DNA from: Schmidtea polychroa
Lineage: Eukaryota
Reading direction: 5' to 3'
DNA: 64,000 bases
Assembly: GCA_044892525.1 (NCBI GenBank)
Contig: CM097885.1
Span: 22,384,001 to 22,448,000, forward strand
Both the position numbers and the translations under genes were made by a program. The notes beneath the pieces were generated by a model. That model saw nothing but the letters and a program-made list of their open reading frames with translations, made no database searches and had not been told where the DNA came from. Below are positions 1 to 60,146 of the stretch, piece by piece (the stretch's first letter is position 1; each line of letters begins with the position of its first letter).

Positions 1-1273
1 TTTTTATTTATTCACATTTGGAACGACCAATCTCAAATTGTTGATGAAAATTTATCCAATAACATGAAAGATAATGTAAAAAAGTTGAGATTTAAAAATC
101 GAATGGATTGAATATTCAGTTTTATTTTTTTTTGTTTTAAATATTCATTGGTGGAATTTTAGACATTCAATCTATGAAAGTCTAATTTCAATCAGTTGTT
201 TTAGTTTTAATTTAAAATTGTTTTTTAACTTATAATCCATTTTAATTAATAATGAATAAGTTTTTCAAGGATTATAAATGGCTATTTAAATATTAAAAAT
301 TTTAAATGTTAAATTTTTAAATTTAAAAAATAAAATTTTTTTTTAATTTAAAAATTAATTTTAATCCATATTTACAGCTTGGAGATGGGTCATACTGTCA
401 TCACTTTTCAAATTTATATTAGTTATAAAAATATGATTTCTGCATTTATGCTTAAGTGACTATTCGTCCGTAGATTTCTGGGATTTTGTCTCTAAAACAA
501 GGCTTGCTTCCCAGTTTATTTTTTCCCGGATTCTGCATTTCTTCATTAAAGTCATAAAATAATTAGTTGAAACTGGAGCTACTATTCTGCTATTACAATT
601 AAAATTTTGAAACAGTACTTTTGTTGAAATTTTGAAAGATATCTCAAAGGGAACCTAATAAAAGGAAGGGATCATAGTTGTCAAAAAAAAATTTGAATTA
701 GTGAGAAGACTTTAACGAATGCTGATATTTTGTTAAGAACAATTGTTTTATCCAAGAAACATTTAATTATAGAAAAATATAATTATTAATTGTTGTATTA
801 AATAATACTTCCAAAAGTAGAACATAGGCAAAACGTCTTGTGTCATTGGAAGTTTCAATAAAAATGCTTACAGTGTTGAAGTAGTATGATGTGAAGCCAT
901 AACACTAAAATACCATTCCCTACTAAATTCTTTTTTCCTCTTTGATTTCACAAAATTCTTGTAAGCGGATTTCAAAGATTATTAGTTCATTTAATTTGGA
1001 ACAATCTCTCTATAAAGTATTTCCATCAATTAACTAGAGAAAAATATTTTTTTTACGATTTTTCATCAATCACCTCAACAGATTTCAAGGATTTCCAACC
1101 CATTCGATTAGCAACGACCTCTTCTACGAATCTCTACTAACCATTTACAAAAAATAATCAAAACATACTTATTCTTATAAATTTCCTGCGTAGATTTCAA
1201 AGATTTATAACTCATTGATTCGTAATTAATAATTATATAATTATAATAATAATAATAATAATAGTAGGTAGTT

Positions 1274-1307
1274 ATGTGCACTCTAGATCCATGTGCACTC
1301 TAGATCC
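1274..1307 (+). repeat. 17-bp tandem duplication in the terminal repeat
   Basis: ATGTGCACTCTAGATCC x2, followed by C- and T-runs and three ATCGATTACGT motifs (~1462, 1498, 1533); mirrored at the right end. Confidence 0.9.
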
Positions 1308-1314
1308 AGATACC

Positions 1315-1357
<43 letters not shown>

Positions 1358-1372
1358 AAACCCCCCCCCTAC

Positions 1373-1404
<32 letters not shown>

Positions 1405-2896
1405 TTTAAAAGACCCCCCCCCCCCATATTTTTTTTTTAAATTTAAATTTTTGTTTTAATTATCGATTACGTAATAATTTTATTTTTTGTTTTAATCATC
1501 GATTACGTAATAATTTAAAATTTTTTTAAAACATCGATTACGTCATTGATTTTAATTTTTTATAAGAATTTTTTATGTCATTATACTTGAAATTTAATTC
1601 TCTGTTAAATGAGACTATGATGTAATCAAAATTCTGAAATTTCATTTTTAGTACACGATTTTTAAATTTACACATCTTTTTAAACAAATTGAGATATTTT
1701 CACTCAAACAATATATAGATAGAATTTTAATCTCTATAAAATGACATCAATATTTACTTCAAATTCATAATCATAACACCTTAAACAATGTATTTTTCAG
1801 CCAACTTTTACATACACACATATTTTCAACTTTTAAAAAATACAAATTAATCATCTATACTTAACTCATAGTAAATAATTATATTAAAAGACATATTAAA
1901 AGATGTATTAAAAACTAAACATTTATTAAAATCCTAGAGAAATTCGATCACTATCTAATTTCCAAATCGGTGATATGACATCTTTCTCATCTATTTTATA
2001 TCCCTGTATTGACATATTTACAAACCATCTTTCCCCATCTTTATATTCAATTTTATATAACAAAGACATATTGCATACAAAGACACACATGACTCATCAT
2101 ACTTTTTAATATATTACGTTGCGGTATTTTAAAATTTAAATTTATTTTAAAAACTTATTTTGATGGTTAAGTAGACAAAATAAGATTATTGCACATACTT
2201 TGGATTATCATATATATAGTCTATCAGACAAGATATTCTGTTCCTCTACGGGTAATGGTCACAAAGATACTGCTAAAACTTTATTACACACAATGTATAA
2301 AAAATCTTATTAGTGTCCACACATGCGACAAGTTATTATTATTATTATTATTATTATTATTTTCAAAGTATTATAATTATATATACTCCTAGTCTATCCG
2401 ACAAGATATTCTGTCCCCCTATGGGTAATGGTCACAAAAGTAAAGGTCACAAAGGTAAAGGTCACAAATGTACTGCTAAAAATATTCAAGACAAAACTTT
2501 AATAAAGAAATTCTAAATATTATACTTTAAATATACACTAAAATTTATTAACACATTGGGTAATGGTCGCAAAGGTAAAGGTTACTAATGTACTGCTCGC
2601 AAAGGTAATACTCACATTCAACATGTCGTAAATTATTTTCAAAGTATTATTATTATTCATTATTAAAATTAAAATTATTATTAAATTCTGACCAACTTAA
2701 ATCAATGAAGGGATAGGACAAAAATATATTACGTTGCGGTATTTTAAAATTTAAATATATTTTAAAAAACTTATTTTGACACTAAAGTTGACTTATTTAA
2801 CAAAGATATAATTATTGCACATGCTTTGCATAAATATTATTATTATTTTTTTTGAATTTTCAATATTTTCTTTCAAAGTATTAACACGCGCGGGAG

Positions 2897-2928
<32 letters not shown>

Positions 2929-3037
2929 GAAAAAGCTAAAATATGGTTTACACATACACAACCTATTAACAATTATTATTGCAAATATTAGTGAAAAACC
3001 TAAAATATTTTTTACACACATATACAACCCATTAAAC

Positions 3038-3084
<47 letters not shown>

Positions 3085-3729
3085 TATTATTAGTCAAAAA
3101 CCTAAAATAATTTTTACACACTAAGTTATGGGGTAGAGAATTATTATATGTTTGCAATATTCTGTGTTTGCCTCTACAGGAAGTTGTCAATAAGGAGCGA
3201 TAATTTACAATTTTACACATACATTCTATATACACATACCTTGTTTAACATGGGTGTATATATTCCTAGTCTATCCGACAAGATATTCTGTCCCCCTATG
3301 GGTATTGCTAGCAAGAGTACTACTCACATTCAACATGTCGCAAGGGTATATTAATTAAGGTTAGTAAATAAAACTTATGACACATACTATTTTTAATAAT
3401 ATTTAAACGATATAAATCAAGACAAGAGAGGACAAGGCAAAGTTTATGCATTTATTATTGCCAGGCCTAATGAGCAGTGACCAAATATCTGTGCCTGAAA
3501 GACACGGTGGATATTTGTTCGCGTCCACAAGGGTCGTCTGTGCCTCCCCAAGTGGGGTCAGAAGAACCTGGACATTATAGTTCTCCGTACGGAACATTAC
3601 GCCTAGCATGGGTAGTCAACTACCAGCACATTTGAAACGTATTAAAAATATATTTCAAAATACATGCGTCATTGGCACTATAACCAAATTAATTAATGTT
3701 TTCACTAACACAAATATATATTTACAGAG

Positions 3730-3773
3730 GCCTCCCACTAGTTGGATTACAACCGCCCACCACGACGATCAGC
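3730..3773 (-). ncRNA. SRP/7SL Alu-domain-like RNA motif (left-arm copy)
   Basis: Reverse complement of the motif at 9578-9621. Confidence 0.55.
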
Positions 3774-5114
3774 TTGCGAATATATATTAATTAAGGGATA
3801 AAGAGGGCCCCCCAACCCTATTATATTTAATTTACAAAATAATGTTTTTAAAGGGCTTCTCCGTCAGTTTTCTCACTCTTCTGATTTTTTTCTGGAATTT
3901 GTCGGTAATCTAGCATTATTATTATTATTTAAATTATTATTATAAATATTATAATTATTATTTATTATTTTTAAGATTTTATTCTGAGAGCAAATTCTAA
4001 TAATATCAACAAATTTGTATTTATTTTAATTACTATTATCAATTACTTAGTTGGCGAAGTCCTAAACAAAGAACTCTATTGAACCATCTAATAAAACAGA
4101 ATATGATCATCTTTTAAATTAATTAATAAAATATTTTTATTATGATAAAGAAATAAACCTAGTTCTTTCCGAATTTCATTTATATATCCACAGGTAATGT
4201 CAGTAAGTTGGATTCATCTATAAATTTATATCACATTTATTATTTAAAGTTAAACTACTCACTGAGAATGACTGAGATAAAGTTTCGCAAACAATAAACT
4301 GTAGTTCTCTGGATAGAAACGAAATAATTTTCAAAAAATCCACTAAAATTTTATCATAAATAGTATTGAATAAATAATTTTGAAATTCTGTTCTAAAATA
4401 GAGTTATAAAATTATTTAATATACAAATTAACTTTACTTTGAATTTAAAAAACTAACTATAAAATTTGCTTATTATTACCAAAAATTTAATATCTTTATA
4501 AAAATATTTAAGCATAAGTAAATAACATTAATTAATCTTAATTTTAATTTATATCAATTCATTAAATTTATAAAATTATTTTATATACAAATTAACTTTG
4601 AATTTAAAAAACTAACTATAAAATTTGCTTTTATATTTAAACAAAGTTTTAAACAAGTTATAATTAAATTATTTTTCGTAAAAAATGATTATATAAAGAT
4701 TAAATATTATTACTTAAAAATAATTTTACTTTTTATTGGAAATTTATTTTTCTTACATAAATTATTACCAAAAATTTAATATCTTTATAAAAATATTTAA
4801 GCATAACATTAATTAATCTTAATTTTAATTTATATCAATTCATTAAATTTATAAAATTATTTTATATACAAATTAACTTTGAATTTAAAAAACTAACTAT
4901 AAAATTTATTTTTATATTTAAACAAAGTTTTAAACAAGTTATAATTAAATTATTTTTCGTAAAAATGATTAATTAAAGATGATGAACTATAAAATAAATA
5001 TTATTACTTGAAAATATTTTTATTTGTTATTGGAAATTTATTTTTCTTACATAAATTTTAATATCTTTATAAAAATATTTAAGCATAAGTAAATAACATT
5101 AATTAAATTAATCT

Positions 5115-5710
5115 AACAACCAAGTACTTACATCTAGACACTAACAACTAGACACTAACAACTAGTTACCGTTTACATAGTACAAGATATCAACAACCTA
5201 CAACTAGATACCAACAACCTGTTACCAACAATGTATTACAAATGGCTACCAAGTACTAACAACTATCTACTACCAACCAGATACTAACAACCAAGTACTT
5301 ACAACTAGACACTAACAACTAGTTACCGTTTACATAGTACAAGATATCAACCACAACAACAACAACAACGACAACTGGATACATACAACTAGATACCAAC
5401 AATCTGTTACCAACTATGTATTACAAATGGCTACCAAGTACTAACAACTATCTACTAACAACCAGATACTAACAACCAAGTACTTACAACTAGACACTAA
5501 CAACTAGTTACCGTTTACATAGTACAAGATATCAACAACAATAACAACAACAACAACTGGATACATAGAACTAGATACCAACAACTTGTTACCGAATAGG
5601 TATTAACAACTATCTACTAAGTACCAACCTAAATTCAATCACTCCCCAAGTATTTTCAACTACTCACTAACAACTACCAAGTACTAAGCACTTACAACTA
5701 GGTGTTAACA
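5115..5710 (+). repeat. CAA/CTA-rich ~160-180-bp tandem repeat (mirrored at ~7640-8240)
   Basis: CAACTAGACACTAACAACTAGTTACCGTTTACATAGTACAAGATATC recurs at ~5146, ~5302 and ~5487. Confidence 0.9.
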
Positions 5711-6349
5711 AATAGATTTAAAAGAAACTTGTTCTTCATTGAAGAAAATGATAATCATTGAATGAAAATAATAATAAAAATGCAACTGATTGACTGAATT
5801 CAAGGTACCAGTACTTGTAAGATTCCAAATAACTAGGTAAAAATTGATGAAATTATTGTAAAAATAACATGTAAAACATTTAAATTATTCAAAACCTAGT
5901 AAATAAATATCATAAAAAGTCAAGAAAGAAAGAACTTGAAATTATAGTCATTGATAATCCAGTAAATATTTATCTTAAATACTAATCATTCAAGTTATTA
6001 ATAAAGTAATTTTAATGATTTCAAATTGATTGACTGATTGCTCAAATTATTCAGAAAATTCAGTATAAATTCATTACAAATTATCAAAGTCGTCAATCTA
6101 GACTAAAAATCAAAATTTAATAAAATCAACAAAATATTTCACCTCATCTACCATCTACCACCTAATTAGAGATTATATTTTCTCATTGATTGAAGAAAAC
6201 TTTGATAAAATTATTCTGAGGTGCTAAGAATCTTCATTGAAATAGAATTATTAGTGGGAAAATAAATTGATTGATCAAATTATTCATCGATTCCAACCAA
6301 ATTTTATTATTCATTGAACTATATGATAAATTATCTAAAAATATATTAA

Positions 6350-6591
6350 CCCTTTCCAGTCCAGTGATTCCAAATGGAATCATTAGTTAAAAACTCAGTT
6401 TTTTTCTCTCTACTACCAAAACGGTTGGCAGTAACTAGTGAGAACTATAGTAAGATATGTTTTTAACAGTTGGCACAAGGGGGCAACAAAGAAAATGAAG
6501 TAAAATATTTTTATGATAAAATAAGTAGTTTTGGTACCTACTTACTGCATATATTTTTTTTTTGTTTTGAAAAAATTTGGGCTGGAAAGGG
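6350..6591. mobile_element. piggyBac-type MITE (242 bp)
   Basis: TTAA duplication (6346-6349, 6592-6595); TIRs CCCTTTCCAGTCCA / TGGGCTGGAAAGGG. The mirror position in the right arm (~7002) has a single, empty TTAA. Confidence 0.9.
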
Positions 6592-9577
6592 TTAAAAGAA
6601 TTGGTTATTATTTCAAAGTCAAATACCATTATTCATAAAGGATGGAAATCTTAATTGAGATAGAATTAATGTCTACTGGTATAATTGCTAAAGGAAAATA
6701 CACTGACAAGTGGTATTGAAATGTTTTTAATGAAAAGTTGACGTATAAGATTGGTGATATATTAAGTATTTATTTAAAAAATATTTTACTCAAACATCAC
6801 TTGAGTATTTAGTTCAATTTTACAGAAGATATATTTGTGGGGTGAATATAAATCATTCGATGATTATTAGTATGAAAATAAATATTGTAAATCAGAGCCT
6901 GTTGATTGTTCACATTATTAATATAAGGATTATTTCTTACCTAAATTGTCACATGTCAAACCATGAAATGGTATTTGACTTTGAAATAATAACCAATTCT
7001 TTTAATATATTTTTAGATAATTTATCATATAGTTCAATGAATAATAAAATTTGGTTGGAATCGATGAATAATTTGATCAATCAATTTATTTTCCCACTAA
7101 TAATTCTATTTCAATGAAGATTCTTAGCACCTCAGAATAATTTTATCAAAGTTTTCTTCAATCAATGAGAAAATATAATCTCTAATTAGGTGGTAGATGG
7201 TAGATGAGGTGAAATATTTTGTTGATTTTATTAAATTTTGATTTTTAGTCTAGATTGACGACTTTGATAATTTGTAATGAATTTATACTGAATTTTCTGA
7301 ATAATTTGAGCAATCAGTCAATCAATTTGAAATCATTAAAATTACTTTATTAATAACTTGAATGATTAGTATTTAAGATAAATATTTACTGGATTATCAA
7401 TGACTATAATTTCAAGTTCTTTCTTTCTTGACTTTTTATGATATTTATTTACTAGGTTTTGAATAATTTAAATGTTTTACATGTTATTTTTACAATAATT
7501 TCATCAATTTTTACCTAGTTATTTGGAATCTTACAAGTACTGGTACCTTGAATTCAGTCAATCAGTTGCATTTTTATTATTATTTTCATTCAATGATTAT
7601 CATTTTCTTCAATGAAGAACAAGTTTCTTTTAAATCTATTTGTTAACACCTAGTTGTAAGTGCTTAGTACTTGGTAGTTGTTAGTGAGTAGTTGAAAATA
7701 CTTGGGGAGTGATTGAATTTAGGTTGGTACTTAGTAGATAGTTGTTAATACCTATTCGGTAACAAGTTGTTGGTATCTAGTTCTATGTATCCAGTTGTTG
7801 TTGTTGTTATTGTTGTTGATATCTTGTACTATGTAAACGGTAACTAGTTGTTAGTGTCTAGTTGTAAGTACTTGGTTGTTAGTATCTGGTTGTTAGTAGA
7901 TAGTTGTTAGTACTTGGTAGCCATTTGTAATACATAGTTGGTAACAGATTGTTGGTATCTAGTTGTATGTATCCAGTTGTCGTTGTTGTTGTTGTTGTGG
8001 TTGATATCTTGTACTATGTAAACGGTAACTAGTTGTTAGTGTCTAGTTGTAAGTACTTGGTTGTTAGTATCTGGTTGGTAGTAGATAGTTGTTAGTACTT
8101 GGTAGCCATTTGTAATACATTGTTGGTAACAGGTTGTTGGTATCTAGTTGTAGGTTGTTGATATCTTGTACTATGTAAACGGTAACTAGTTGTTAGTGTC
8201 TAGTTGTTAGTGTCTAGATGTAAGTACTTGGTTGTTAGATTAATTTAATTAATGTTATTTACTTATGCTTAAATATTTTTATAAAGATATTAAAATTTAT
8301 GTAAGAAAAATAAATTTCCAATAACAAATAAAAATATTTTCAAGTAATAATATTTATTTTATAGTTCATCATCTTTAATTAATCATTTTTACGAAAAATA
8401 ATTTAATTATAACTTGTTTAAAACTTTGTTTAAATATAAAAATAAATTTTATAGTTAGTTTTTTAAATTCAAAGTTAATTTGTATATAAAATAATTTTAT
8501 AAATTTAATGAATTGATATAAATTAAAATTAAGATTAATTAATGTTATGCTTAAATATTTTTATAAAGATATTAAATTTTTGGTAATAATTTATGTAAGA
8601 AAAATAAATTTCCAATAAAAAGTAAAATTATTTTTAAGTAATAATATTTAATCTTTATATAATCATTTTTTACGAAAAATAATTTAATTATAACTTGTTT
8701 AAAACTTTGTTTAAATATAAAAGCAAATTTTATAGTTAGTTTTTTAAATTCAAAGTTAATTTGTATATAAAATAATTTTATAAATTTAATGAATTGATAT
8801 AAATTAAAATTAAGATTAATTAATGTTATTTACTTATGCTTAAATATTTTTATAAAGATATTAAATTTTTGGTAATAATAAGCAAATTTTATAGTTAGTT
8901 TTTTAAATTCAAAGTAAAGTTAATTTGTATATTAAATAATTTTATAACTCTATTTTAGAACAGAATTTCAAAATTATTTATTCAATACTATTTATGATAA
9001 AATTTTAGTGGATTTTTTGAAAATTATTTCGTTTCTATCCAGAGAACTACAGTTTATTGTTTGCGAAACTTTATCTCAGTCATTCTCAGTGAGTAGTTTA
9101 ACTTTAAATAATAAATGTGATATAAATTTATAGATGAATCCAACTTACTGACATTACCTGTGGATATATAAATGAAATTCGGAAAGAACTAGGTTTATTT
9201 CTTTATCATAATAAAAATATTTTATTAATTAATTTAAAAGATGATCATATTCTGTTTTATTAGATGGTTCAATAGAGTTCTTTGTTTAGGACTTCGCCAA
9301 CTAAGTAATTGATAATAGTAATTAAAATAAATACAAATTTGTTGATATTATTAGAATTTGCTCTCAGAATAAAATCTTAAAAATAATAAATAATAATTAT
9401 AATATTTATAATAATAATTTAAATAATAATAATAATGCTAGATTACCGACAAATTCCAGAAAAAAATCAGAAGAGTGAGAAAACTGACGGAGAAGCCCTT
9501 TAAAAACATTATTTTGTAAATTAAATATAATAGGGTTGGGGGGCCCTCTTTATCCCTTAATTAATATATATTCGCAA

Positions 9578-9621
9578 GCTGATCGTCGTGGTGGGCGGTT
9601 GTAATCCAACTAGTGGGAGGC
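9578..9621 (+). ncRNA. SRP/7SL Alu-domain-like RNA motif (right-arm copy)
   Basis: GCTGATCGTCGTGGTGGGCGGTTGTAATCCAACTAGTGGGAGGC: helix GATCGTC/GGCGGTT, UGUAA hinge, helix TCCA/TGGG, complementary loops TGGT/ACTA, closing GCT/GGC. Resembles the 5' end of metazoan 7SL. Confidence 0.55.
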
Positions 9622-10267
9622 CTCTGTAAATATATATTTGTGTTAGTGAAAACATTAATTAATTTGGTTATAGTGCCAATGACGCATGTATTTTGAAATA
9701 TATTTTTAATACGTTTCAAATGTGCTGGTAGTTGACTACCCATGCTAGGCGTAATGTTCCGTACGGAGAACTATAATGTCCAGGTTCTTCTGACCCCACT
9801 TGGGGGAGGCACAGACGACCCTTGTGGACGCGAACAAATATCCACCGTGTCTTTCAGGCACAGATATTTGGTCACTGCTCATTAGGCCTGGCAATAATAA
9901 ATGCATAAACTTTGCCTTGTCCTCTCTTGTCTTGATTTATATCGTTTAAATATTATTAAAAATAGTATGTGTCATAAGTTTTATTTACTAACCTTAATTA
10001 ATATACCCTTGCGACATGTTGAATGTGAGTAGTACTCTTGCTAGCAATACCCATAGGGGGACAGAATATCTTGTCGGATAGACTAGGAATATATACACCC
10101 ATGTTAAACAAGGTATGTGTATATAGAATGTATGTGTAAAATTGTAAATTATCGCTCCTTATTGACAACTTCCTGTAGAGGCAAACACAGAATATTGCAA
10201 ACATATAATAATTCTCTACCCCATAACTTAGTGTGTAAAAATTATTTTAGGTTTTTGACTAATAATA

Positions 10268-10311
<44 letters not shown>

Positions 10312-10420
10312 GTTTAATGGGTTGTATATGTGTGTAAAAAATATTTTAGGTTTTTCACTAATATTTGCAATAATAATTGTTAATAGGTTGTGTATGTGTA
10401 AACCATATTTTAGCTTTTTC

Positions 10421-10452
<32 letters not shown>

Positions 10453-10987
10453 CTCCCGCGCGTGTTAATACTTTGAAAGAAAATATTGAAAATTCAAAAA
10501 AAATAATAATAATATTTATGCAAAGCATGTGCAATAATTATATCTTTGTTAAATAAGTCAACTTTAGTGTCAAAATAAGTTTTTTAAAATATATTTAAAT
10601 TTTAAAATACCGCAACGTAATATATTTTTGTCCTATCCCTTCATTGATTTAAGTTGGTCAGAATTTAATAATAATTTTAATTTTAATAATGAATAATAAT
10701 AATACTTTGAAAATAATTTACGACATGTTGAATGTGAGTATTACCTTTGCGAGCAGTACATTAGTAACCTTTACCTTTGCGACCATTACCCAATGTGTTA
10801 ATAAATTTTAGTGTATATTTAAAGTATAATATTTAGAATTTCTTTATTAAAGTTTTGTCTTGAATATTTTTAGCAGTACATTTGTGACCTTTACCTTTGT
10901 GACCTTTACTTTTGTGACCATTACCCATAGGGGGACAGAATATCTTGTCGGATAGACTAGGAGTATATATAATTATAATACTTTGAA

Positions 10988-11026
<39 letters not shown>

Positions 11027-11994
11027 TTGTCGCATGTGTGGACACTAATAAGATTTTTTATACATTGTGTGTAATAAAGTTTTAGCAGTATCTTTGTGAC
11101 CATTACCCGTAGAGGAACAGAATATCTTGTCTGATAGACTATATATATGATAATCCAAAGTATGTGCAATAATCTTATTTTGTCTACTTAACCATCAAAA
11201 TAAGTTTTTAAAATAAATTTAAATTTTAAAATACCGCAACGTAATATATTAAAAAGTATGATGAGTCATGTGTGTCTTTGTATGCAATATGTCTTTGTTA
11301 TATAAAATTGAATATAAAGATGGGGAAAGATGGTTTGTAAATATGTCAATACAGGGATATAAAATAGATGAGAAAGATGTCATATCACCGATTTGGAAAT
11401 TAGATAGTGATCGAATTTCTCTAGGATTTTAATAAATGTTTAGTTTTTAATACATCTTTTAATATGTCTTTTAATATAATTATTTACTATGAGTTAAGTA
11501 TAGATGATTAATTTGTATTTTTTAAAAGTTGAAAATATGTGTGTATGTAAAAGTTGGCTGAAAAATACATTGTTTAAGGTGTTATGATTATGAATTTGAA
11601 GTAAATATTGATGTCATTTTATAGAGATTAAAATTCTATCTATATATTGTTTGAGTGAAAATATCTCAATTTGTTTAAAAAGATGTGTAAATTTAAAAAT
11701 CGTGTACTAAAAATGAAATTTCAGAATTTTGATTACATCATAGTCTCATTTAACAGAGAATTAAATTTCAAGTATAATGACATAAAAAATTCTTATAAAA
11801 AATTAAAATCAATGACGTAATCGATGTTTAAAAAAAATTTTAAATTATTACGTAATCGATGATTAAAACAAAAAATAAAATTATTACGTAATCGATAATT
11901 AAAACAAAAATTTAAATTTAAAAAAAAAATATGGGGGGGGGGGTCTTTTAAAAAATTAAAAAAAAAAAAAAAAAAAAAGTAGGGGGGGGGGTTT

Positions 11995-12041
<47 letters not shown>

Positions 12042-12092
12042 GGTATCTGGATCTAGAGTGCACATGGATCTAGAGTGCACATAACTACCTAC

Positions 12093-12171
<79 letters not shown>

Positions 12172-13250
12172 TTTACCTTTGAACAAAATATCTATAAACA
12201 AGTTAAAGGTCTGCCTATGGGTTCTAGCATATCAGGACTGCTAGCAATCATCTTTATGGATAACCTCGAACGACAGACACTGAGGACCATACAACCCATC
12301 GGTTTCTATGGAAGATATGTAGATGATATCTTCATCACGACCAAAAACAGAAAAGAAGCGGAGGAAATATTTCATACATTCAATGCGGCTCATCAAGATA
12401 TTAAGTTCGAAATCGAATATCCGGAAGAAGATGGATCCCTCAATTTATTGGATTTGAGAATCAAAATAGAAGAAAATACTCCAACATACGGGTTCTACAG
12501 AAAACCAGCTCGCAAAGAAATATTTATGCACCAAAGATCAGCGCTTCCATACTTACAGAAAGTACATGTCATAAGAAACGAGAAACGAAGAATAGCCAAT
12601 CGATGCACGGAGAAAAACGAAAACTTTAAAGAGCAATCAAATTTCAATAAAATCCTACACCGAAACGGATACCAAGGTGAGGACATTGAACAAATGAATT
12701 CTACCCCAAGAAGATCTAGGGAATTAACACAAAAGAATCAGAAATATTTCTATCTGAATATCCCATTCATCAGTGACATACTCGACTTCAAGATCCTGAA
12801 AGAACTTAAACGTACCGGTCTTCCAATTCGGATAGCACATAAATCTTGGACATTGAGAAGGGCTCTGGCAGGCAACATAAATAGAGAAAACAATTGCACA
12901 ATGAAAAACTGCCAGACACCGAAAGATATGTGCTTTAGAAAAAACATCGTCTATTGCATCACGTGCAATGTATGCAATGAAATCTACATTGGAAGTACCC
13001 TCAGGACATTGCACCAAAGAGTTAAAGAACATCTAGATCCTGGTGGAACATCCTCGTTGGGCAGACATCTCCGGCAGTGTCAGCCAACAGAGGAAAGAAA
13101 AAAAATATTTCAATAGAAATCATAGCTAATGGAAACATCCAAAAGAAAAATGTCACAATCAAAGAAGCAATTCTCATCATAAACAGACAGCCAAAGATCA
13201 ACACTAAAGAAGAAATCAATGAAATCATGAATTTGATCTGTTGTCATTGA
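12172..13250 (+). mobile_element. Penelope-like retroelement, 5'-truncated: RT C-terminal part plus GIY-YIG endonuclease (Neptune/Naiad-like)
   Basis: FTFEQNIYKQVKGLPMGS, YGRYVDDIF, LNLLDL, YRKP, Cys-rich linker, VYCITCNVCNEIYIGST, RVKEH. After a -1 shift in the A-run at ~13098-13105 it continues to KEAILI...PKIN and a stop at 13250. The 5' end abuts (AAT)n. Confidence 0.9.
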
Positions 13251-18530: not shown

Positions 18531-19719
18531 CTGATTACTCCAGTAAGTTCCGAGAGCCAAAACCATATTATCATTGTTGCCGGTGGTAAAAAGTGAAATA
18601 GTACATTGATGAAAAAAAGGTCGGAAAAAGTACGCAACGTTTAAAAAAGGCTGAAAATCGGACTAAAGTCCGCAAAACGGCAAAACTGCATATTATTAAT
18701 TTTCCCGTCATTATCTGTAATTTCTAGATTAGTCGTAGAGTACGAGCCATGAGGAGTAACGTGACACGACATCTGGTGGACACAAGCGGAAATAGGTAGT
18801 ACTGTCTATCGCTAACAGATGGCGCTAATAGCACGTACAGAATAATCTCGTTGGTTCGAGAAAGTTCTGGTGTCTTCCACTCACTTCTAGATGGCAGTAA
18901 TTGGAATATATAAGAAGGCTAGTGGCGCAACCACAAGTCAGTTCATATGACACTGTTGTGAAATAAAATAGTGCGTACCTCCTTAAAACGTGTTTGTGCG
19001 TGTTTAAGCTTAAGACATCTTTGTAACAATACACCAAATTCAGAAATTTAATAACCTCTTTAATTCACGTTGGTGTGCGCACCAGTTGAGGTGAGTCACC
19101 ATTTACGTGAAAATGAAGTTATTAAATTTCATTTATTCAATTTATTAAAAATGGTTTTCAGGTAATTTTTTTAATTTCAAGTAACTTTTAAGACTTGAAT
19201 TTTGATTTTATATAATTATGAGATCATTATTCAAGTTCTTAAATATTATTGTTAGTCAGCATTTATAATATAACATTGATAATAATTAAATTTCAGGTGT
19301 TTTTTAGGAATTTTATGAAATTCAATGATTTTTTATTTGGAATTATTTCAATAAAATGTAAGTTAGATATATTTTTAACTAAATAAATAAACTAATTACC
19401 GAAAACATTAATTTTTTAATGCAATTAGGAAAGAAATGGATGAAATAGTTTTTTAAATTTTTATAATCTTTCTCCAGCTCATTTTCGATGGCCCCATATT
19501 TTTAATATTTATAAATGATTGCTTTAATTAAAGATTTGGTCATTCCTAGTAATCTTCCAAATTCTTGGTAATTGTTAGGGTTGTCAAGTGTTAATCATAA
19601 AAAAAGAGAACATTATAAAAATTATTTTATTCATATTAATTTTTTTTTAAATTGTAATATATACTAAAACAAATTGCACTTCCAATTCATTTGCAAATAA
19701 AATAATAAGTCAATATAAT

Positions 19720-28049: not shown

Positions 28050-29357
28050 ATGGATCTAAAGATGGATTTAACTGGCGACTACGCCGAAAATCAAAATATC
28101 AACGCCATTTCGAAATCGACAAAATCGCTAATGGAATGCCTACCGAAATCATGCCAAGACATGCTCACACTGAATATCAAACGATATGATAGACGAGGTT
28201 TAAAAGAAGCCGAAGAATGGATCAGAGATATAGAAGAATGGTTGCTGACAAATGGACAGCGATTGACAAGCACTTTCGATGTGATATTAGTGGCAGAAGC
28301 AAAGACATTGTGGGGAAACGTCAGAGAAACAGAAACAACAGATGTAAAAGCTAAAGCGTGGTTCTTAAATACATTCACAATTACAAAATCAATAACTGAC
28401 AAAATCAGAGAATTGGCAGTTATGGAACAGGAAGATGATGAAAGGTTTGCAGCTTTTGAGATACGGCTAAGAAAAGCTTTAGCTGAAGTTGTAAATTCAG
28501 GACGATCAGACGAAGATATTGTTCAAGACCTCATAGCAAATAAAGCACGCGATGCGAGACTGAGGGAGATACTATTGACGAAACCAGAAACAAAAATTGA
28601 TGAAACGAGATCATTGGCGAAAATATTTGAAAGTAACGAAAATGGAAACCATAAAACAGAATTTGTTAAAGCAATCGATCAAAGAACATACGCTAGCGTG
28701 ACTGAGGGAGGGCAGATGAGAATTCAACAGAATACCCAAAATCCCATGCCTACATCACCACAAAGAAGACAATCAGAAGACCCATTTAGTCACCACAGAT
28801 CAAGAAGAGACGAACGCCCTATACGCGGACCAATACAATATGAAGGAAATAACCATGGTCGTCGAGAACAATCTCCAAGAGAACAATTCTTGAGAAATGC
28901 GAGAATCCCGAATAGCTCAGAAAGGAAGCTGCCAACAATATCCATGAAGAATATAGCAAGGAGGCTGTACAACGAAAGTAGAGGACTACCACAAGCATCG
29001 GTCCCAAAATTAACGGTAGGTGATTGTTTTTGCTGTGGCGAAAAGGGACACAGAAGGTATGAGTGTCCACTGGGAAATAAATGCCTGATATGTGGCAAGG
29101 AAGGTCACGGTTTCCGAGATTGTTTTTCGTTACGGAAGGAGGTTCCACACCGATATCAAAGGATAGCGAGCATAGAAGAAGAAGATTCAAAATCTGAAAG
29201 AAGAGATTACACCGAGAACAGCCAGGATTTCAGAACTGCTCACAGCGACATGGAAGATAGATACAATGTCCTTGAAAAATATACTATATTGAGAGAAGAC
29301 AGAAAAAACAACAGCGACTCCATGGGTTTCATTTCGTCGGTGGAGTCAAGACAATAA
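28050..29357 (+). CDS. gag: Gag with two CCHC zinc knuckles
   Basis: 435 aa; CFCCGEKGHRRYEC and CLICGKEGHGFRDC. Confidence 0.92.
   Translation: MDLKMDLTGDYAENQNINAISKSTKSLMECLPKSCQDMLTLNIKRYDRRGLKEAEEWIRDIEEWLLTNGQRLTSTFDVILVAEAKTLWGNVRETETTDVKAKAWFLNTFTITKSITDKIRELAVMEQEDDERFAAFEIRLRKALAEVVNSGRSDEDIVQDLIANKARDARLREILLTKPETKIDETRSLAKIFESNENGNHKTEFVKAIDQRTYASVTEGGQMRIQQNTQNPMPTSPQRRQSEDPFSHHRSRRDERPIRGPIQYEGNNHGRREQSPREQFLRNARIPNSSERKLPTISMKNIARRLYNESRGLPQASVPKLTVGDCFCCGEKGHRRYECPLGNKCLICGKEGHGFRDCFSLRKEVPHRYQRIASIEEEDSKSERRDYTENSQDFRTAHSDMEDRYNVLEKYTILREDRKNNSDSMGFISSVESRQ
29303..29347 (+). other. -1 programmed ribosomal frameshift signal (gag to pol)
   Basis: A AAA AAC in the gag frame (29303-29309), 6-nt spacer, 7-bp stem GACTCCA/TGGAGTC; the protease ORF lies in the -1 frame. 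Confidence 0.8.
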
Positions 29358-29404
29358 ATTGTGAAATAAGAAATGAACGACGAAGAGACGAGGCAGAAGA
29401 AGAG

Positions 29405-32400
29405 ATGTACCAGACGAAAGATGGAAGAAATTGGAGTAAAATAATGTTGAATAATGCCGAAACAGAGATGTTATGGGATTCTGGAGCATCAGTAACAGTC
29501 ATGAGCAAGAGTTTGTGGGAGAAAATCGGCAAACCAGAACTTAAACGTAGTATGATATTATTGTGCGGAGTTTTTCAACTGGAGGTGAAGAAGCAATGGG
29601 ATACATGACTATACCGGCCATATGGACTCAGAAGACCAAAATAATCACAGTAGTAGTGGTAAAAGAGATCAAACCCGAATTCATAGGGGGCATTGATACA
29701 ATGAAAGAGTTTGGAGTAAAGTTAGTGAAAATCAATAATATAGAAACGTCATTGATAAACAAAATTTACACTGATGAAGAAAGAATAAATAAAGCACTAG
29801 TGGCGATGGCAGGTGAGAATAATAAAGATATTGAAGGAATGATCAGGGAATACGGCGGAATTTTTATGGCATCGAAATTCGATCTGGGATTTACAAACTT
29901 AGTTCGACATGAGATGCGGATAACAGGAGGCCCAATAATGCAACATCCTCGACGTCAACCAATGCACATAGAGAAAAGAATTGAAGAACTGATAAAAGAG
30001 TTAATGAAAGCAAATGTTATTCGATGTTGCAAGAGTCCTTGGAATGCCCCGTTAGTTATAGTAGGGAAGAAAGATGGATCTATCAGGATGTGTGTAGATT
30101 ATCGTGGATTAAATTCCATAACAGAAAAAGAGTCATTTCCTATGCCTAACACCAAATTCTTACTAGACTGTCTCGCGAATGCAAAAGTATTTTCGTCAAT
30201 CGATTTAGGTCAGGCGTATTATCAAGTGGAGTTGGCTCCAGAAATTCAAGAAATGACTGCATTCAGTACAAGAGACGGACAATTTTGCTTCAATAGACTA
30301 CCGTTTGGCTTAGCAACAGCTCCTGCGACATTTCAGAGACTGATGCACACAGTGCTAGAAGGAATGCTATTCAAGGGAGTAGTAGTTTATCTAGATGATA
30401 TCTTGGTATATGGTAAAAGTCAAAAAGACCACGATGAGATATTAAGGGAAATATTCGGAAGAATTCAAGTGGCAGGACTGAAGATAAATCCAGAAAAATG
30501 CAAATTCAATAAAACAGAATTGTGTTTCCTTGGTCACACAATTAACGAGAAGGGTATCCAGACAAACAGGAAGAAAGTGGAAGAGATCGAGAAAGCAGAA
30601 GTACCAAAATGTTCAAAACAATTGAGATTGTTTCTCGGATTAACGAACTACTATAGAAGATTCATCAAAGACTATGCCAAATTCGCCGAACCATTATACG
30701 CTGCAACATCTGGATGCGATAAAGATATAAATTGGACTAAAGAATGCAATGAGAGCTTCCAAACTCTGAAGAGACGGTTGTGCGAAGCACCTATCCTTGA
30801 TTTTCCAAGAGAAGATAGGACTTTTATCTTAGATACAGACGCTAGTTTCGGAGCCATTGGTGCAGTTTTGAGTCAAATTACAGAAGATGGAGAAGAATCT
30901 GTCATAGCTTATGGCTCGAGACATATGTCATCACATGAAAAGGGATACTGTGTAACCAGGAAAGAACTGCTCGCCGTACATGAATACGTCATGCATTTTA
31001 GAGAATATCTGTACGGAAAAAATTCATAATTCGCACCGACCACAAGGCATTGGTTTTCATGAACACTACAAAAACGCCAATCAGTCCGCAATTTCAAACA
31101 TGGTTAGCTAACCTGTCGGAATATGATTTTGAACTAAAATATCGGAAAGGCGAAGAACACTCAAATGCAGATGGACTATCAAGATTAAAAAGTATGGTTT
31201 GCACCCAGTGTCAAACAAGACATGAAGAAGCTAAGGAAGGAAAATCAAAGATTATATATATATATATATATACTATCCAAAGAATAGAAGCTATGGAAAA
31301 AGTATGGGAACAACAACAAAAGGACATTCGGTTTCGAGAGCTACGAGAGATATTGGAAAATGGATGTACACGGGAGAAAAAGAATTGTTTTCCTTTTAAC
31401 GTAAAAAATACACAAATTGATGGAGGATTAATAACAGTAGAAAAGAACAAAAATATCTTAATGTTAGTCCCAGAAACATTTGCAGGCCTGTTAACAACAA
31501 CGCTACATGAAGAACTATGTCACATTGGAGTTAAGAAATTATTTCATTATATGGAAAAGATATTTTATTGGCCGAAAATGCAAGAAACAATCCAACTCTG
31601 TTTACAATGTTGCGAGATCTGCGCTAAGAGAAAGATCGATCAGACAAGAACCAAGGAAACATTTATTCCTAGATATAGCTCTGAATTCCCAGAACAGATT
31701 GTTATAGATGTGGCTTACATGGAAATAAACGCCATAAAAAAATATATGGTAGTAATGGTGGACCGTTTTAGCAAGCTGATTTCTTTAACTGCAATCACAA
31801 AGCAAGACGAAGGGACCATTTTCAAAATAATACTTAATAGTTGGATCTATCGATTTGGAAAACCGAAGAGTATTTTAACAGATAGAGGCCGAAATTTCGA
31901 AGGGAATTTCCTAAGACAGAAGCTACAGAAACTTGGAATCAAACAGGAATTCAGCTCACCTTATCAGCACCAATCAAATGGTTTAGCCGAAAGAGCCATA
32001 CGAACGATAAGAGATCTTATTACAGCAACATTGGCAGGCGGATGTGAAGAGAGAAACTGGCACGAACTTCTACCCAGAATAGAGTTCACTATAAATAGCA
32101 GTCGACAAAGTGCTACAAGTTTATCACCATTTGAGATAATTTATGGATGGAGTGTTAACCTACACTCTAACCTGAAACAAGCCGAGATATCAAGAAGCGA
32201 ACGAATCGAAGACGCGAGATTTAACTCGAGTAAAGCCGCAGACACTATGAGAGCTATGGATAAGATAAAGAGGGGCACTCGTGTTTTCGAGGTGGGGGAG
32301 GAGGTACTCGTACGTAAAGAGCCGCAGAACAGGCACAAGGATGGTATGCAATACGATGGCCCATATAAAATCGCCAGATTTCTATCACCTCATCGAGTCG

Positions 32401-32468
32401 AACTACATTCACAAGAAGGAACGAAAGAAAGAAGAATCGAGTGGCTGAAGAAGTGGAAAAGGTCTTAA
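29405..32468 (+). CDS. pol: Pol polyprotein (PR, RT, RNase H, integrase), split by two 1-nt homopolymer deletions
   Basis: LWDSGAS (PR); RMCVDYRGLN, LPFGL, YLDDIL (RT); DTDAS, ELLA (RH); HHCC, TDRGRNF, SNGLAER, YDGPY (INT). Shifts at ~29571-29575 (T5) and ~31017-31022 (A6). Confidence 0.93.
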
Positions 32469-48192: not shown

Positions 48193-48303
48193 CTGTTAAC
48201 CAATTATTCAATTCATTATTTTTAAAACATTTTTTATTTATCGAATAAATTCCCCCAAAAGTGACATTATATCAATAAAGTTAAAGAATAGAGTATATAT
48301 ATA

Positions 48304-48636
48304 AGTAGTGAGGAATCTATGCACCCCAGCACCCCCACCCTAAAAAAAAACAGCGCTATTGACCCATATTTTCCACATTTATATGCTTTTTTACCCCATA
48401 TTCTTCACTTTTTTTAACTTTTAAACTTTGTCCCCTATTGCCATTAACCCTTAATTTCTTCCCTTAAAAGTAAAAAAGTTCGGAATAGATGTATTTATAG
48501 ATTAGTAATTCCGAGAAAAGGTAACGGGGTGCATAGATTCCTCACTACTTGGTCTTAAGGATTTAATGTTATAAGGATTTAATGTTATAAGAATATCAGA
48601 TTACCTAATTCATAATGATCTAGGTCGCCTGATCAC
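48304..48636 (+). repeat. Left TIR of the Polinton
   Basis: Reverse complement of 61278-61610; contains an inverted copy of its first 24 bp (48526-48549) and TAAGGATTTAATGTTA x2. Confidence 0.97.
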
Positions 48637-48709
48637 TTTTAGATTTAAAAAAAATAAAAATTAATATCAAAACCAAAACATCGTATCCAACCAAAAGATT
48701 CTTTTAAAA

Positions 48710-51700
48710 ATGGAAGGTATTTTCAATTGTGAAATTTGTGAAAAAAATTTTAAAAATAAAACTGCTTTAACATCTCATAAAAAATCAAAAGACCATTTAA
48801 TAAAAGCTAACACACTAGATGACACTAATTCCAAAATCTGTACTAAATGTAAGGATAGATATTTATTTTCAGGTTATAAGAAGCATTTTAAAAATTGTAT
48901 TGGAGTTCCTAAAAACAGAGAAATATTCGAATGTTCAGCATGTGGAAAAACGATGAGGATAAAATCTTTTTACTTAAGACACATAGAAGATTGTGGTCTT
49001 GAAGCAAAAGATTCTGATTCAAACTCAATGATTGAAAAAGCTGAAAAACTAGAGTTTAATTGGGATGACTTCAATCACACCGATATAATTGCAGAAGTAA
49101 AACGAGGACCCAGATCAATCATGCAATATATAAGAGAAAATAAAAAAAAAATAATATCATCAATGGATGATGCTATAAAAAAATTTGGTAGATCAAGATT
49201 TAATGTTATAAAAGTTAAATTTACAGGAAATGTAAAATACTGGAGAGGAGATGATTCAATCGCAATGCCTCTAGATGTAAAAATTGAAACCTCATATAAA
49301 TATTTATTTTCTACAAAAGCAGGAAATAAACTTGTTAATGATATAGCTAAAGAATTGGAAGAAAAACAAGAACAGGTGGAACAAGAACTAGGAGAATCTA
49401 ATTTAAGATTCCACTCTTTTCAAAATATAGAGATTGAATACTGGAGAGGCGCACCACCAAATCCTAAATCTTTTATTCACACACCATTCACCTCCAACCA
49501 TGTTATAAATGTACAGAATAAAGATAATAAATGTTTTCAATGGTCAATACTTGCACACTTACATCCTCAAGCAACTAACCCACAGAGAGTTCAAAAATAT
49601 GAAGAATATGAATCTGAATTAATTTATCCAAAAGATTTTTCCCACCCAATGAAAATTGAAGATGTTCCAGCATTTGAAAAATTAAATAATCTTAAAATTA
49701 ATATTTATCAATTCATTCCAACCAAAATTACAAAAACTAGAAAAAATAAAAATTATAAACACATTATTCCTATTTACATTTCTAACATGGAAATCTCAGA
49801 TGAAAAGAGAGAAGTAGATCTTTTAATATTAGAAGAAGGTAAACCAGATGAAGACTTTGATGGAGAAGAATATGGTGAAGAGGTTCAAAGCGTTCACCCG
49901 AGGAGAGAAGCAGAAGAAGGCATTTCATTAGAACCAGAAGCAGAAAGCACTATGTTAGATAAAAAACTTCATTATATCTTAATAAAGAATTTTCAAAGTT
50001 TTATGAAAGGAAACACACTCATTCGTGGAGGCATATGTTGTAAAAGATGTTTATATCATTCAAGTTCAAAACTTGCTGCTATTAAACATGAGAGACTCTG
50101 TTGTAAGAATCAACCTGCTTTAATAAAAATGCCACACAAGAAAAATGCTAATATGAGGTTTAATAACTATTCCAATCTATTAGAAGCATTGGGAGTGGTT
50201 TATTGTGATTTTGAAGCTATAAATGTAAAACTAAGACGAACAAAAACTAATACTGTAAAACTAACAAAACAATTACCCTCTGCTTATAAAATGTTTTTTA
50301 AAAGTAATTATCCAGAACTTGTAGAATCTAGAGAATATTCATTTAGAGGAACTTCTGACAAAGAGACTCTAGATCATTTTGTTAAAACTTTAAATAATCT
50401 AGAACATGAATTATATATAATATTAAAATCCAACTTTCCTATGAATTTTTCAGAAGAACAAGAGGAAGAATATAAAAATGCAACACACTGCTGGATGTGT
50501 AAACAAGAGTTTTATATTCAGGAGGAGGAGGATGAGGAGCCAAAGGTTGCAGACCATGATCATTTTAAAAGAGAAAATAATTACAGAGGAGCAGCCCATA
50601 AAAAATGTAATCTCAATTGTAAAAACCAACACACATACCATTTATATTTCACAATCTTTTTGGCTATGATATTCACCTATTCATTAAGCATCTCGCCGCA
50701 AATGCTAAAAACTCTTTCAAGGTTATTGGACTTACAAAAGAAAAATATAAAAGCATTCAATATGGATGCTTTAAGTTTTTGGACTCGTTAAATTTCTTAG
50801 GGATGTCTTTGGATGGGATTGCTAAAACTATGAACCCTGAGGATTTTAAATATACAAAAGAACATGTGTTATTAAAAAACAATATTCCATTAGAGGAATA
50901 TAATACCTGTCTAGCAAAAGGAATCTATCCATATGATTATATAGACTCCTTTGAAAAATATAATGAATTACTCCCACCCCAAGAAGATTTCTTTTCTGTT
51001 TTAACACAATCAGGGATTTCTGATCAGGAATATTCCCGTGCAGTTAAAATGTGGAATCTATTCAACTGTAGAAACCTTGGAGAATATACTGACATGTATC
51101 TTTCCTTGGATGTTTATATCTTAGCTGATTGCTTCGAGACATTTTCAAAAGCTTTTGAATTAAAACCTTATAATTATATAACCGCTCCCTCTCTAGCTTG
51201 GGATATATTATTATATACCATATGGACTGATGAAGATGTAGCAGTAAGAAATAAAACTATTGAATTATTAGTTGAGCTTGATATGTTTAATGTATATAAA
51301 CATAATATTAGAGGAGGTATTTCTTCAGTACAAGGGAATAGAGAAATAAATGCTAATAATTTTACAACTCTTTATCCTAAATTTTTCAAAGATCCTAATG
51401 CTCTATATGTAGAAATAACAAACCCAGAAGATCGTAAGGAAATAATGGAAGGTCTTTCTAATCCTTCTGAAATAATGTATATAGATGCAACAGCTTTATA
51501 TGCGGGAGTAATGACTCAATACCTTCCAATTGGCAAGTTCACCTGGAAAGAACCCACTGAGGAATTAATACAAGAAATTCTAAAAACACCAAAAGATTCT
51601 CAATTTGGATATGTCATAGAATGCGATCTTGAATATCCCAATGAAATAAAATCCAGAACTAGATATTTTCCATTTGCTCCTGTAAGAAGAAAGATCTCTC

Positions 51701-53019: not shown

Positions 53020-53147
53020 TGATTCATAGGTTGGCTTTCAACGATATTTAATTTTTTAATAATAAAATGTCGACAATTAATTTAAGCAACTATAGCAACC
53101 TGATCTACTTTTTTAAAAATACACCCATTTTATAAGTAAGAATTCTT

Positions 53148-53741
53148 TTACCATTTTTCTCGAGATGTTTTTTTATTACTTATAACATTAGCCACCATGC
53201 CCTCCCTTTTTAATCTTATAACCTCATTCTTTATATCTTGTATTATTTGATTTGATTTCATTATTTCTTCGTCTGTCAGGATTCCATCTTCCAAAGCTTT
53301 TAATTGAAATAAAAATAATTTAGAGATTCCTAATTCTATTGATAAACAAACTTCTCTATATAAACTTTTCTTTTTAGAAGTATAAGATAATGAAACTATT
53401 TCAGTTAAGAAACCATCAGCCACAGAAATACTTCCAAGTATTACAGGTGCAAGAGTAACAACTGGTAAAGTTATGGGTAAAATAACTGTTAATATTGCAG
53501 ATGCAAATCCTAAAGAATAACCTATAACTTTTAAAACTGTATTCCCTTTATTCCATCTATTTTTAATTTTTTTATAATGCTTTAATAAATCTTGTAAATG
53601 TAAGGTTTCTGATTTAAATTCTTTTACTCTCATAATTTCAAGTTCTGTGGGAGCCGAGGCCTTGGAACCTTTGTGACCTTCGGAATAATATCCTGATGAT
53701 CTCAATTCTGGGTAAATTTTTTCTTCTCTTACTTCTTCCAT
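53148..53741 (-). CDS. Polinton putative membrane protein (197 aa)
   Basis: Central hydrophobic hairpin (VIGYSLGFASAILTVILPITLPVVTLAPVILGSISV) between helical regions; N-terminal IYPEL. Confidence 0.7.
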   Translation of the reverse strand: MEEVREEKIYPELRSSGYYSEGHKGSKASAPTELEIMRVKEFKSETLHLQDLLKHYKKIKNRWNKGNTVLKVIGYSLGFASAILTVILPITLPVVTLAPVILGSISVADGFLTEIVSLSYTSKKKSLYREVCLSIELGISKLFLFQLKALEDGILTDEEIMKSNQIIQDIKNEVIRLKREGMVANVISNKKTSREKW

Positions 53742-53749
53742 TTTAATAA

Positions 53750-54733: not shown

Positions 54734-54770
54734 TTTTATAGTAATAAAAATAAAATCCTTAGACGTCCCT

Positions 54771-56032: not shown

Positions 56033-56040
56033 TTTATATT

Positions 56041-56829: not shown

Positions 56830-56851
56830 TTTAATGGTATTAAAAATGGTA

Positions 56852-57460: not shown

Positions 57461-57476
57461 TTTATAATAAATAAAA

Positions 57477-60092: not shown

Positions 60093-60146
60093 TTTTATAT
60101 ATTAAAATTTACACACACAATAGGATTAATTAAATATATTATGTAA

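What the first reader, a model, noticed from the sequence alone, without database searches (positions are those of the whole stretch)
9578..9621. 7SL/SRP Alu-domain mimic carried in both palindrome arms
Seen: a 44-nt GC-rich island (mirror 3730-3773) that folds as the SRP Alu 5' domain, with two hairpins, a UGUAA hinge and complementary loops (UGGU/ACUA). I see no S-domain helix-8 motif downstream; T-runs follow at ~9691 and ~9703. Established: this fold binds SRP9/14 and docks on ribosomes, and 7SL-derived mobile sequences are mostly known from Euarchontoglires. Inference: the element captured or evolved an Alu-like RNA that could recruit SRP9/14. With the tRNA-like array, this suggests Polinton-type elements in this host use small structured RNAs.
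Basis: partly seen in the sequence, partly recalled or inferred. Interest (0 to 1): 0.78.

Follow-up and report, generated by a model that had tools for sequence, protein, structure and literature searches.

The report
Permuted Alu RNA in Polinton satellite
A gene-less, palindromic parasite of virus-like Polinton transposons carries about 2,000 copies of the front end of the cell's signal-recognition-particle RNA, changed in sequence yet still paired and predicted to be closed by a new helix formed with upstream sequence, which likely lets a longer RNA of the element bind the host's SRP9/14 proteins, although neither expression nor binding is shown.

Summary
Real. 9578-9621 (mirror 3730-3773) is the 5' Alu domain of 7SL RNA. 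It matches the host's own 7SL at 34 of 44 letters, keeps all 13 stem pairs (three changed on both sides) and keeps the G4-U23-G24 triad. Nothing else of 7SL is detectable. Instead, upstream sequence is predicted to pair with downstream sequence (14 bp; 0 of 20,000 shuffles) where helix 5 belongs. That is a circularly permuted Alu domain, which can form only in an RNA starting upstream of 9578. It lies in an ~870-bp cassette with ~2,000 copies, carried by gene-less palindromes with Polinton ends (here 1263-12093). In 20 gene-bearing Polintons the cassette and the polymerase gene never occurred together (7 against 13). The tRNA-like array belongs to a different Polinton (48293-61621). Best reading (0.45): a satellite RNA loads SRP9/14 to reach ribosomes. 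Main rival (0.3): a relic whose paired changes arose in a donor 7SL. Expression and binding are not shown. The scan noted this motif before on another copy (e1-7879908), which gave the permutation lead.

The parts
9578..9621 (+). 7SL-derived Alu 5' domain (helices 2, 3, 4; G4-U23-G24 triad; loop-loop complement)
   Evidence: 34/44 to host 7SL, 13/13 stem pairs, double changes at 5/22, 6/21, 10/17
3730..3773 (-). mirror copy in the left arm
   Evidence: exact reverse complement
9563..9576 (+). upstream strand (-15..-2) of the predicted closing helix, in the place of the 3' strand of SRP helix 5; joined to G1 by one A
   Evidence: 14 Watson-Crick pairs in copy L104; the window copy has one C.A mismatch and one G.U
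9625..9638 (+). downstream strand (+48..+61) of the predicted closing helix, after a 3-nt hinge (9622-9624)
   Evidence: lineage-level variation resumes at +62/+63
9513..10384 (+). cassette shared between otherwise largely unrelated arms of the window's subfamily and the main family (mirror about 2965-3838 on -)
   Evidence: 887 columns at 90.9% identity, sharp 5' edge; ~2,004 copies of an inner 30-mer in G000
9743..9893 (+). second predicted folded domain in the cassette (closed multibranch with a stable 3' hairpin); no Rfam family; not more stable than shuffles
   Evidence: (z about -1)
1263..12093 (.). gene-less palindromic Polinton derivative, 10,831 bp, AGTAGG...CCTACT ends, AATAAT duplication inside an (AAT)n tract
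11305..12093 (+). outer end, 97% identical to the terminal repeat of a 15-kb gene-bearing Polinton family that lacks the Alu motif
6350..6591 (.). small element with CCC...GGG ends between TTAA duplicates (piggyBac-like; label recalled); true central spacer about 6631-6966

Best explanation
A gene-less Polinton satellite carries a 7SL-derived Alu 5' domain that is predicted to be closed by a new helix formed with upstream sequence, and it likely makes an RNA that loads host SRP9/14 and so reaches ribosomes. Shown: (1) the 44 nt derive from 7SL and keep every stem pair and the U-turn triad; (2) the motif sits in a cassette shared by different arms and different Polinton end types; (3) the cassette arm never occurred with the polymerase gene in the sample, and gene-bearing carriers are joins between a helper's left half and a satellite arm, at several breakpoints. 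Predicted: (4) -15..-2 pairs with +48..+61, a circular permutation that puts the domain inside an RNA starting upstream of -15. Inferred: (5) the cassette is transcribed while a helper Polinton is active; (6) SRP9/14 binds, stabilises the RNA and takes it to ribosomes, as with Alu RNAs; (7) this favours the satellite, most simply by damping or redirecting translation during co-replication, a job like that of adenovirus VA RNA done with an SRP part.
For:: all 7 stem changes against host 7SL keep pairing (0.043% of 200,000 random trials); with its flanks the minimum-energy structure is the complete Alu fold plus a 14-bp closing helix (0 of 20,000 shuffles reach 14 anchored pairs; 6 of 2,000 reach the duplex energy). 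The helix strands show no detectable 7SL homology, so they were probably not copied from 7SL. The match to 7SL ends at 45 nt, close to the 46-nt minimal domain that binds SRP9/14; Alu also works embedded in Pol II transcripts (PMC11760393, passages). The triad is kept in 63 of 63 islands, all 13 pairs in 55, and 13-14 closing-helix pairs in 60 (loci not independent). Position 36 is G, where host and Rfam consensus have C; this fits change inside the element and a shift to a contiguous 4-pair loop contact. The cassette begins 65 nt upstream of G1 on two unrelated arms. Cassette and polymerase were exclusive, 7 against 13 of 20.
Against: There is no evidence of a defined transcript: the only runs are 'RNA?' guesses kept as contigs. 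Within the genome the island is not clearly more conserved than the rest of the cassette (0 changes in 44 nt against a few percent elsewhere is expected often by chance). No compensatory change was seen in the closing helix, and the window's own young sub-lineage spread with a C.A mismatch in it. The helix is built on an (AT)n core, which pairs easily. The domain is weaker than the host's (-8.7 against -12.1 kcal/mol; pair probabilities 0.26-0.51 against 0.56-0.97), and in a 420-nt context the window copy's best fold loses it. The G13-C36 loop contact is broken. At positions 12 and 38 the element agrees with the Rfam consensus rather than the host, so some changes may predate capture. 4 of 30 arms of the window's subfamily lack the island. 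How an RNA helps an element that replicates as DNA is unclear.
Confidence: 0.45

Rival explanations
1. Passive relic: a 45-nt 7SL fragment from an ancestral or foreign host, or from a 7SL SINE, was captured once, the flanking inverted repeat arose from template switching or (AT)n sequence, and the motif rides along in a recently amplified satellite.
For: The element matches the Rfam consensus, not the host, at positions 12 and 38. No excess conservation within the family. Mismatch and deletion variants exist. Automated annotation lists SINE/7SL together with a Maverick expansion in Dugesia (10.64898/2025.12.11.693146, passages).
Against: G36 departs from a conserved SRP position while the stems stay paired. 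The closing helix lies in helix-5 register with a 3-nt hinge and is not detectably 7SL-derived. The cassette was kept on two unrelated arms with an edge 65 nt upstream.
Confidence: 0.3
2. A discrete Pol III small RNA starting at 9578 and ending at the T4 at +114 (scAlu- or VA-like), using the A-box-like sequence inside the Alu domain.
For: The exact 7SL 5' end is kept; T4 at +114 in both families and T6 at +351 in the main family; another Polinton in this window carries three A/B-box units.
Against: No A/B-box pair was found in either palindrome, and only a 3-mismatch B-box-like word at +128 to +136 (box patterns recalled). The predicted closing helix needs upstream sequence. Two 'RNA?' contigs run through from at least 228 nt upstream (weak, contigs show no start).
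Confidence: 0.12
3. The domain is functional but not for ribosome contact: SRP9/14 or the compact fold only stabilises, exports or shields a ~420-nt cassette RNA, or the cassette acts as DNA (promoter or replication signal).
For: The whole 9512-9950 block is more conserved than its flanks (heterogeneity about 0.02 against 0.05-0.13) and holds a second predicted domain. In S. mediterranea Polintons are piRNA targets (PMC8532177, passages). A one-base link may lock the 'open' form, as a rigid link did in the artificial permuted RNA (PMC4238359, passages).
Against: A DNA-only role would not select for strand-specific G.U pairs or compensatory changes.
Confidence: 0.13

Closest known systems
Alu 5' domain of metazoan SRP (7SL) RNA, Rfam RF00017 positions 1-44
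   Same: Helices 2-4, UGUAA U-turn, G4-U23-G24 triad, loop-loop complement; 34/44 to the host gene
   Different: No S domain and no 7SL 3' end; helix 5 replaced by a non-homologous helix made with upstream sequence; G36 breaks the G13 contact
7SL-derived SINEs (Alu, B1, Tu, hagfish Ebu1-1, shrew-mole Urop; PMC13023118, abstract and passages)
   Same: A 7SL head amplified in a mobile element that depends on a helper
   Different: Those keep both 7SL ends around a central deletion, have a Pol III promoter and a tail, and retrotranspose; this one keeps only the 5' 45 nt inside a DNA element with Polinton ends and 6-bp duplications
Artificial circularly permuted Alu RNA used for crystallography (described in PMC4238359, passages)
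   Same: The natural 5' and 3' ends are joined, so helix 5 closes the domain from upstream
   Different: Here apparently natural, with an AU-rich uninterrupted helix, and only predicted
Polinton/Maverick elements; adenovirus VA RNA (recalled)
   Same: Ends, 6-bp duplications, helper genes (integrase, A32 ATPase, adenoviral protease, TBP); a virus-like element with a host-derived structured RNA
   Different: Gene-less palindromes of 9-14 kb; the RNA comes from 7SL, not tRNA; no Pol III boxes found

Membership tests
SRP Alu 5' domain | Helices 2, 3 and 4 in a three-way junction | tested here: met
   13 of 13 pairs, three with double changes against the host
SRP Alu 5' domain | G4-U23 pair with G24 U-turn (PMC12265939, passages) | tested here: met
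   63 of 63 islands
SRP Alu 5' domain | Loop-loop pseudoknot | tested here: inconclusive
   G14-C33 and U15-A32 kept; G13-C36 lost; alternative U12-A35 and G13.U34 possible (human register recalled)
SRP Alu 5' domain | Binds SRP9/14 | not testable with these tools
   needs a binding assay; Pfam searches for the host proteins were blank and uninformative
Full SRP RNA gene | S domain (helices 6, 8) and 7SL 3' end | tested here: not met
   the real genes are a tandem array elsewhere
7SL-derived SINE | Both 7SL ends around a central deletion, plus a tail | tested here: not met
   no 7SL homology beyond position 45 and no tail after the island
7SL-derived SINE | Copies inserted on their own at dispersed sites | tested here: not met
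   all 93 distinct sequences from 152 extracted islands aligned as one cassette; two relaxed patterns found only variants of this family
Polinton (non-autonomous derivative) | AG-type ends shared with gene-bearing Polintons and 6-bp target duplications | tested here: met
   duplications in 7 of 9 elements; the window's ends are 97% identical to a gene-bearing family
Polinton (autonomous) | Encodes protein-primed polymerase B and integrase | tested here: not met
   no Polinton genes in the palindromes; 0 of 7 gene-bearing cassette carriers had the polymerase between capsid gene and right end
VA-type Pol III small RNA | Internal A and B boxes, discrete start and T-run end | tested here: inconclusive
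   T-runs present, no A/B pair; start not measurable

The most novel reading that the evidence does not exclude
A natural, circularly permuted SRP Alu domain lets a satellite of a DNA virus-like element hijack its helper the way Alu hijacks L1: the satellite RNA loads SRP9/14, docks on ribosomes making the helper's polymerase or other proteins, and diverts them to the satellite. It would be the first SRP9/14-based parasitism outside retrotransposons and outside vertebrates.
Probability: 0.12. Interest if true: 0.92.

Novelty: new variant of a known kind. Interest (0 to 1): 0.7.

Why it matters
7SL-derived mobile sequences are described in supraprimates, hagfish and a shrew mole, all as retrotransposed SINEs (PMC13023118). 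An Alu domain in a DNA-replicating, virus-like satellite of an invertebrate would show that SRP9/14 recruitment is useful beyond retrotransposition. Its rewiring so that it can sit inside a longer RNA would be a natural case of a topology that my searches found only as a laboratory construct. It also exposes a helper-satellite system among Polintons with ~2,000 cassette copies. It is easy to test, since the 76-nt RNA can be made in vitro.

Tried and rejected
Full SRP gene or hidden S domain: rejected. Stand-alone SINE: rejected. Assembly artefact: rejected, because the same palindromes occur on several chromosomes with their own target duplications. Part of the window's Polinton at 48293-61621: rejected, since its ends differ and it has no island. 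A second, more diverged Alu family: two exclusion patterns gave 34 and 10 matches, all variants of this family; a family that kept those positions would be missed. A mobile loop-broken subfamily: G14A has only 13 copies, 8 of them within 0.9 Mb of C1. An intact upstream gene with the island in its 3' UTR: intron-like stretches and an ORF end ~75 nt upstream exist, but reading frames differ between copies, so this is not supported; the blast column came back empty and was not used. Expression: no RNA holder listed; three 'RNA?' contig sets cover the island but show no start, strand or level; splice joints and ends on a main-family copy remain unmeasured. Host SRP9 and SRP14 by Pfam: blank, controls also blank. 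Viral and metagenome pattern scans: 0 hits. Rfam on helper loci gave no SRP hit, but the same call also missed known islands in L103/L104, so it is weak. No outgroup 7SL was obtained; the Schistosoma supplement holds its SRP RNA only as a figure. Ahl 2015 and Weichenrieder 2001 were not held. The bioRxiv supplement on Dugesia SINE/7SL was not seen and may bear on novelty.

Full report
Observation. The 44 nt at 9578-9621 and their exact mirror at 3730-3773 are present. Rfam Metazoa_SRP hits both at 29.8 bits, E=6.5e-4, below the gathering score, with only positions 1-44 well aligned. Alone, the 44-mer folds no better than its shuffles (z 0.07). The window is G000:C1:22384001-22448000 in a 781-Mb genome. 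A mir-753 hit just under its cut-off suggests a planarian host; that this family is planarian is recalled.

Origin. The host's 7SL genes form a tandem array with a 593-bp period, and the 15 fetched share one 5' 44-mer. The island matches it at 34 of 44 letters. Seven of the ten differences lie in stems and all keep pairing: double changes at 5/22, 6/21 and 10/17, and C-G to U-G at 3/42. Seven random stem changes do this in 0.043% of 200,000 trials. G4, U23 and G24, the triad needed for SRP9/14 binding (PMC12265939, passages), are kept. Two loop-loop pairs are kept, G13-C36 is lost, and a contiguous four-pair register is possible. Beyond position 45 nothing matches host 7SL better than shuffles do. 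Against the Rfam consensus line, the element is the changed side at 3, 5, 22 and 36 but the host is at 12 and 38. So the changes cannot all be assigned to the element without an outgroup, which I could not obtain.

Permutation. In copy L104, bases -15..-2 pair with +48..+61 in 14 Watson-Crick pairs. One A links this strand to G1, and a 3-nt hinge follows C44. None of 20,000 dinucleotide shuffles of the flanks gave 14 anchored pairs, and 6 of 2,000 reached the duplex energy (-14.1 against a mean of -6.0 kcal/mol). With the flanks, the minimum-energy structure is the whole Alu fold, in L104 and in the window. This is where helix 5 stands in SRP, but closed from upstream, so it can form only in an RNA that starts before 9563. 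A search for 'circularly permuted', 'SRP RNA' and 'Alu domain' listed one paper, which describes such an RNA as an artificial construct in the open conformation (PMC4238359, passages). Against: the Alu helices reach pair probabilities of only 0.26-0.51 (host 0.56-0.97); the window copy loses the fold in a 420-nt context while L104 keeps it; the helix has an (AT)n core; no compensatory change was seen in it; and the window's sub-lineage (10 arms) carries a C.A mismatch.

Carrier. The palindrome runs 1263-12093 with AGTAGG...CCTACT ends and has no Polinton genes. Its outer ~790 bp are 97% identical to the ends of a 15-kb gene-bearing Polinton family that lacks the island. A pattern for the island core gives 1,956 matches, host 7SL genes included (reversed control 0). 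A 30-mer further inside the cassette gives 2,004. Many of the first 100 islands listed are divergent pairs a few kb apart. Of 9 elements examined, 7 had 6-bp target duplications; sizes were 9.1-13.9 kb, plus one of 28 kb with a nested Polinton, and several end types occurred. The window's arm and a main-family arm share mainly one block, 9513-10384 (90.9% over 887 columns), which begins sharply 65 nt before G1. Among 67 loci picked without looking at the island (not independent; both arms and some duplicates included), 63 have it, 46 are identical, 55 keep all 13 pairs, 63 keep the triad and 60 keep 13-14 closing pairs. The block 9512-9950 varies less than its flanks, but the island does not stand out within it.

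Relation to helpers. Of 10 apparently single islands, two lay in gene-bearing Polintons. One carries integrase, A32 ATPase, TBP and adenoviral protease by Pfam. Its putative capsid genes and the polymerase of L225 had no Pfam hit; these labels rest on position and on tblastn to a window protein with a DNA_pol_B_2 hit. I took 20 of the 23 plus-strand hits among the 40 best matches to that putative capsid gene. Thirteen had the polymerase and no island, seven had the island and no polymerase, and none had both; the query came from an island carrier, so the ratio may be biased. The seven join a helper's left part to a satellite arm at several breakpoints, which fits template switching during co-replication (inference). 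Gene-bearing Polintons also form palindromic derivatives. The tRNA-like units (three A/B-box pairs by recalled patterns) are in the window's separate Polinton; none was found in the palindromes.

Expression. No holder is on record as RNA. Contigs of two 'RNA?' runs from one sample cross the island from at least 228 nt upstream, which shows no start, strand or level. Host SRP9/14 searches were uninformative.

Mechanism. Most likely (0.45) the cassette yields an RNA with the permuted domain near its 5' end. SRP9/14 would bind it, since the 46-nt 5' domain suffices and Alu works embedded in Pol II transcripts (PMC11760393, passages). It would then be taken to ribosomes, where Alu RNPs lower initiation (PMC4357698, abstract), and this would aid the satellite during helper activity. 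Homology, covariation, cassette anatomy and exclusion with the polymerase are shown; the closing helix is predicted; transcription, binding and benefit are inferred. Rivals: relic of a donor 7SL or SINE (0.3), stabilising or DNA-level role (0.13), discrete Pol III RNA from G1 (0.12).

Novelty. 7SL-derived elements are described in supraprimates, hagfish and a shrew mole (PMC13023118, abstract and passages). Searches pairing Polinton or Maverick with Alu domain, SRP9, 7SL, VA RNA, Schmidtea or satellite terms (listings only, except where cited) showed no report of this. A Dugesia genome preprint lists automatically annotated SINE/7SL repeats, seemingly absent in Schmidtea (passages; supplement not seen), which may be the same cassette or its donor. 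Verdict: a real, new variant of the Alu-domain RNA kind in an unexpected carrier, function unproven; interest 0.7.

Noticed in passing
window 48293-61621: A separate Polinton (372-bp terminal repeats; polymerase B, A32 ATPase, integrase, double-jelly-roll capsid) with three tRNA-like A/B-box units at about 60154, 60388 and 60628, upstream of the minus-strand capsid gene.
   Followed up: partly
window 12094-13210: A Penelope-like RT plus GIY-YIG fragment directly follows the (AAT)n tract at the palindrome's right end, in frame with the tract.
   Followed up: partly
window 19184-19245: mir-753-like hairpin, 61.7 bits against a cut-off of 62.
   Followed up: no
window 9743-9893: Second predicted multibranch RNA domain in the conserved cassette, with no Rfam match; T6 follows at +351 in the main family.
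   Followed up: partly
window 10010-10100 and 10720-11140 (and mirrors): A ~90-bp repeated unit recurs in satellite arms and near helper ends; possibly a shared cis signal; high summed contig depth.
   Followed up: no
L067-L068 (G000:C2:78.45 Mb), L069-L070 (G000:C3:16.61 Mb): Gene-bearing Polintons also occur as near-perfect palindromes with two polymerase arms, like snap-back defective genomes.
   Followed up: partly
L104 about 2900-3580; L135 3' end: Upstream of the cassette in the main family lie short GT-AG intron-like stretches and decayed reading frames ending ~75 nt before the island.
   Followed up: partly
L128:8156-8632: Polinton-encoded TBP-like protein (PF00352, E=1.4e-15).
   Followed up: partly
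G000:C2:31.93-31.98 Mb: Host 7SL genes in a tandem array with a 593-bp period.
   Followed up: partly
window 28050-32468: Gypsy-type gag/pol/integrase frames (label from the translations, not searched).
   Followed up: no
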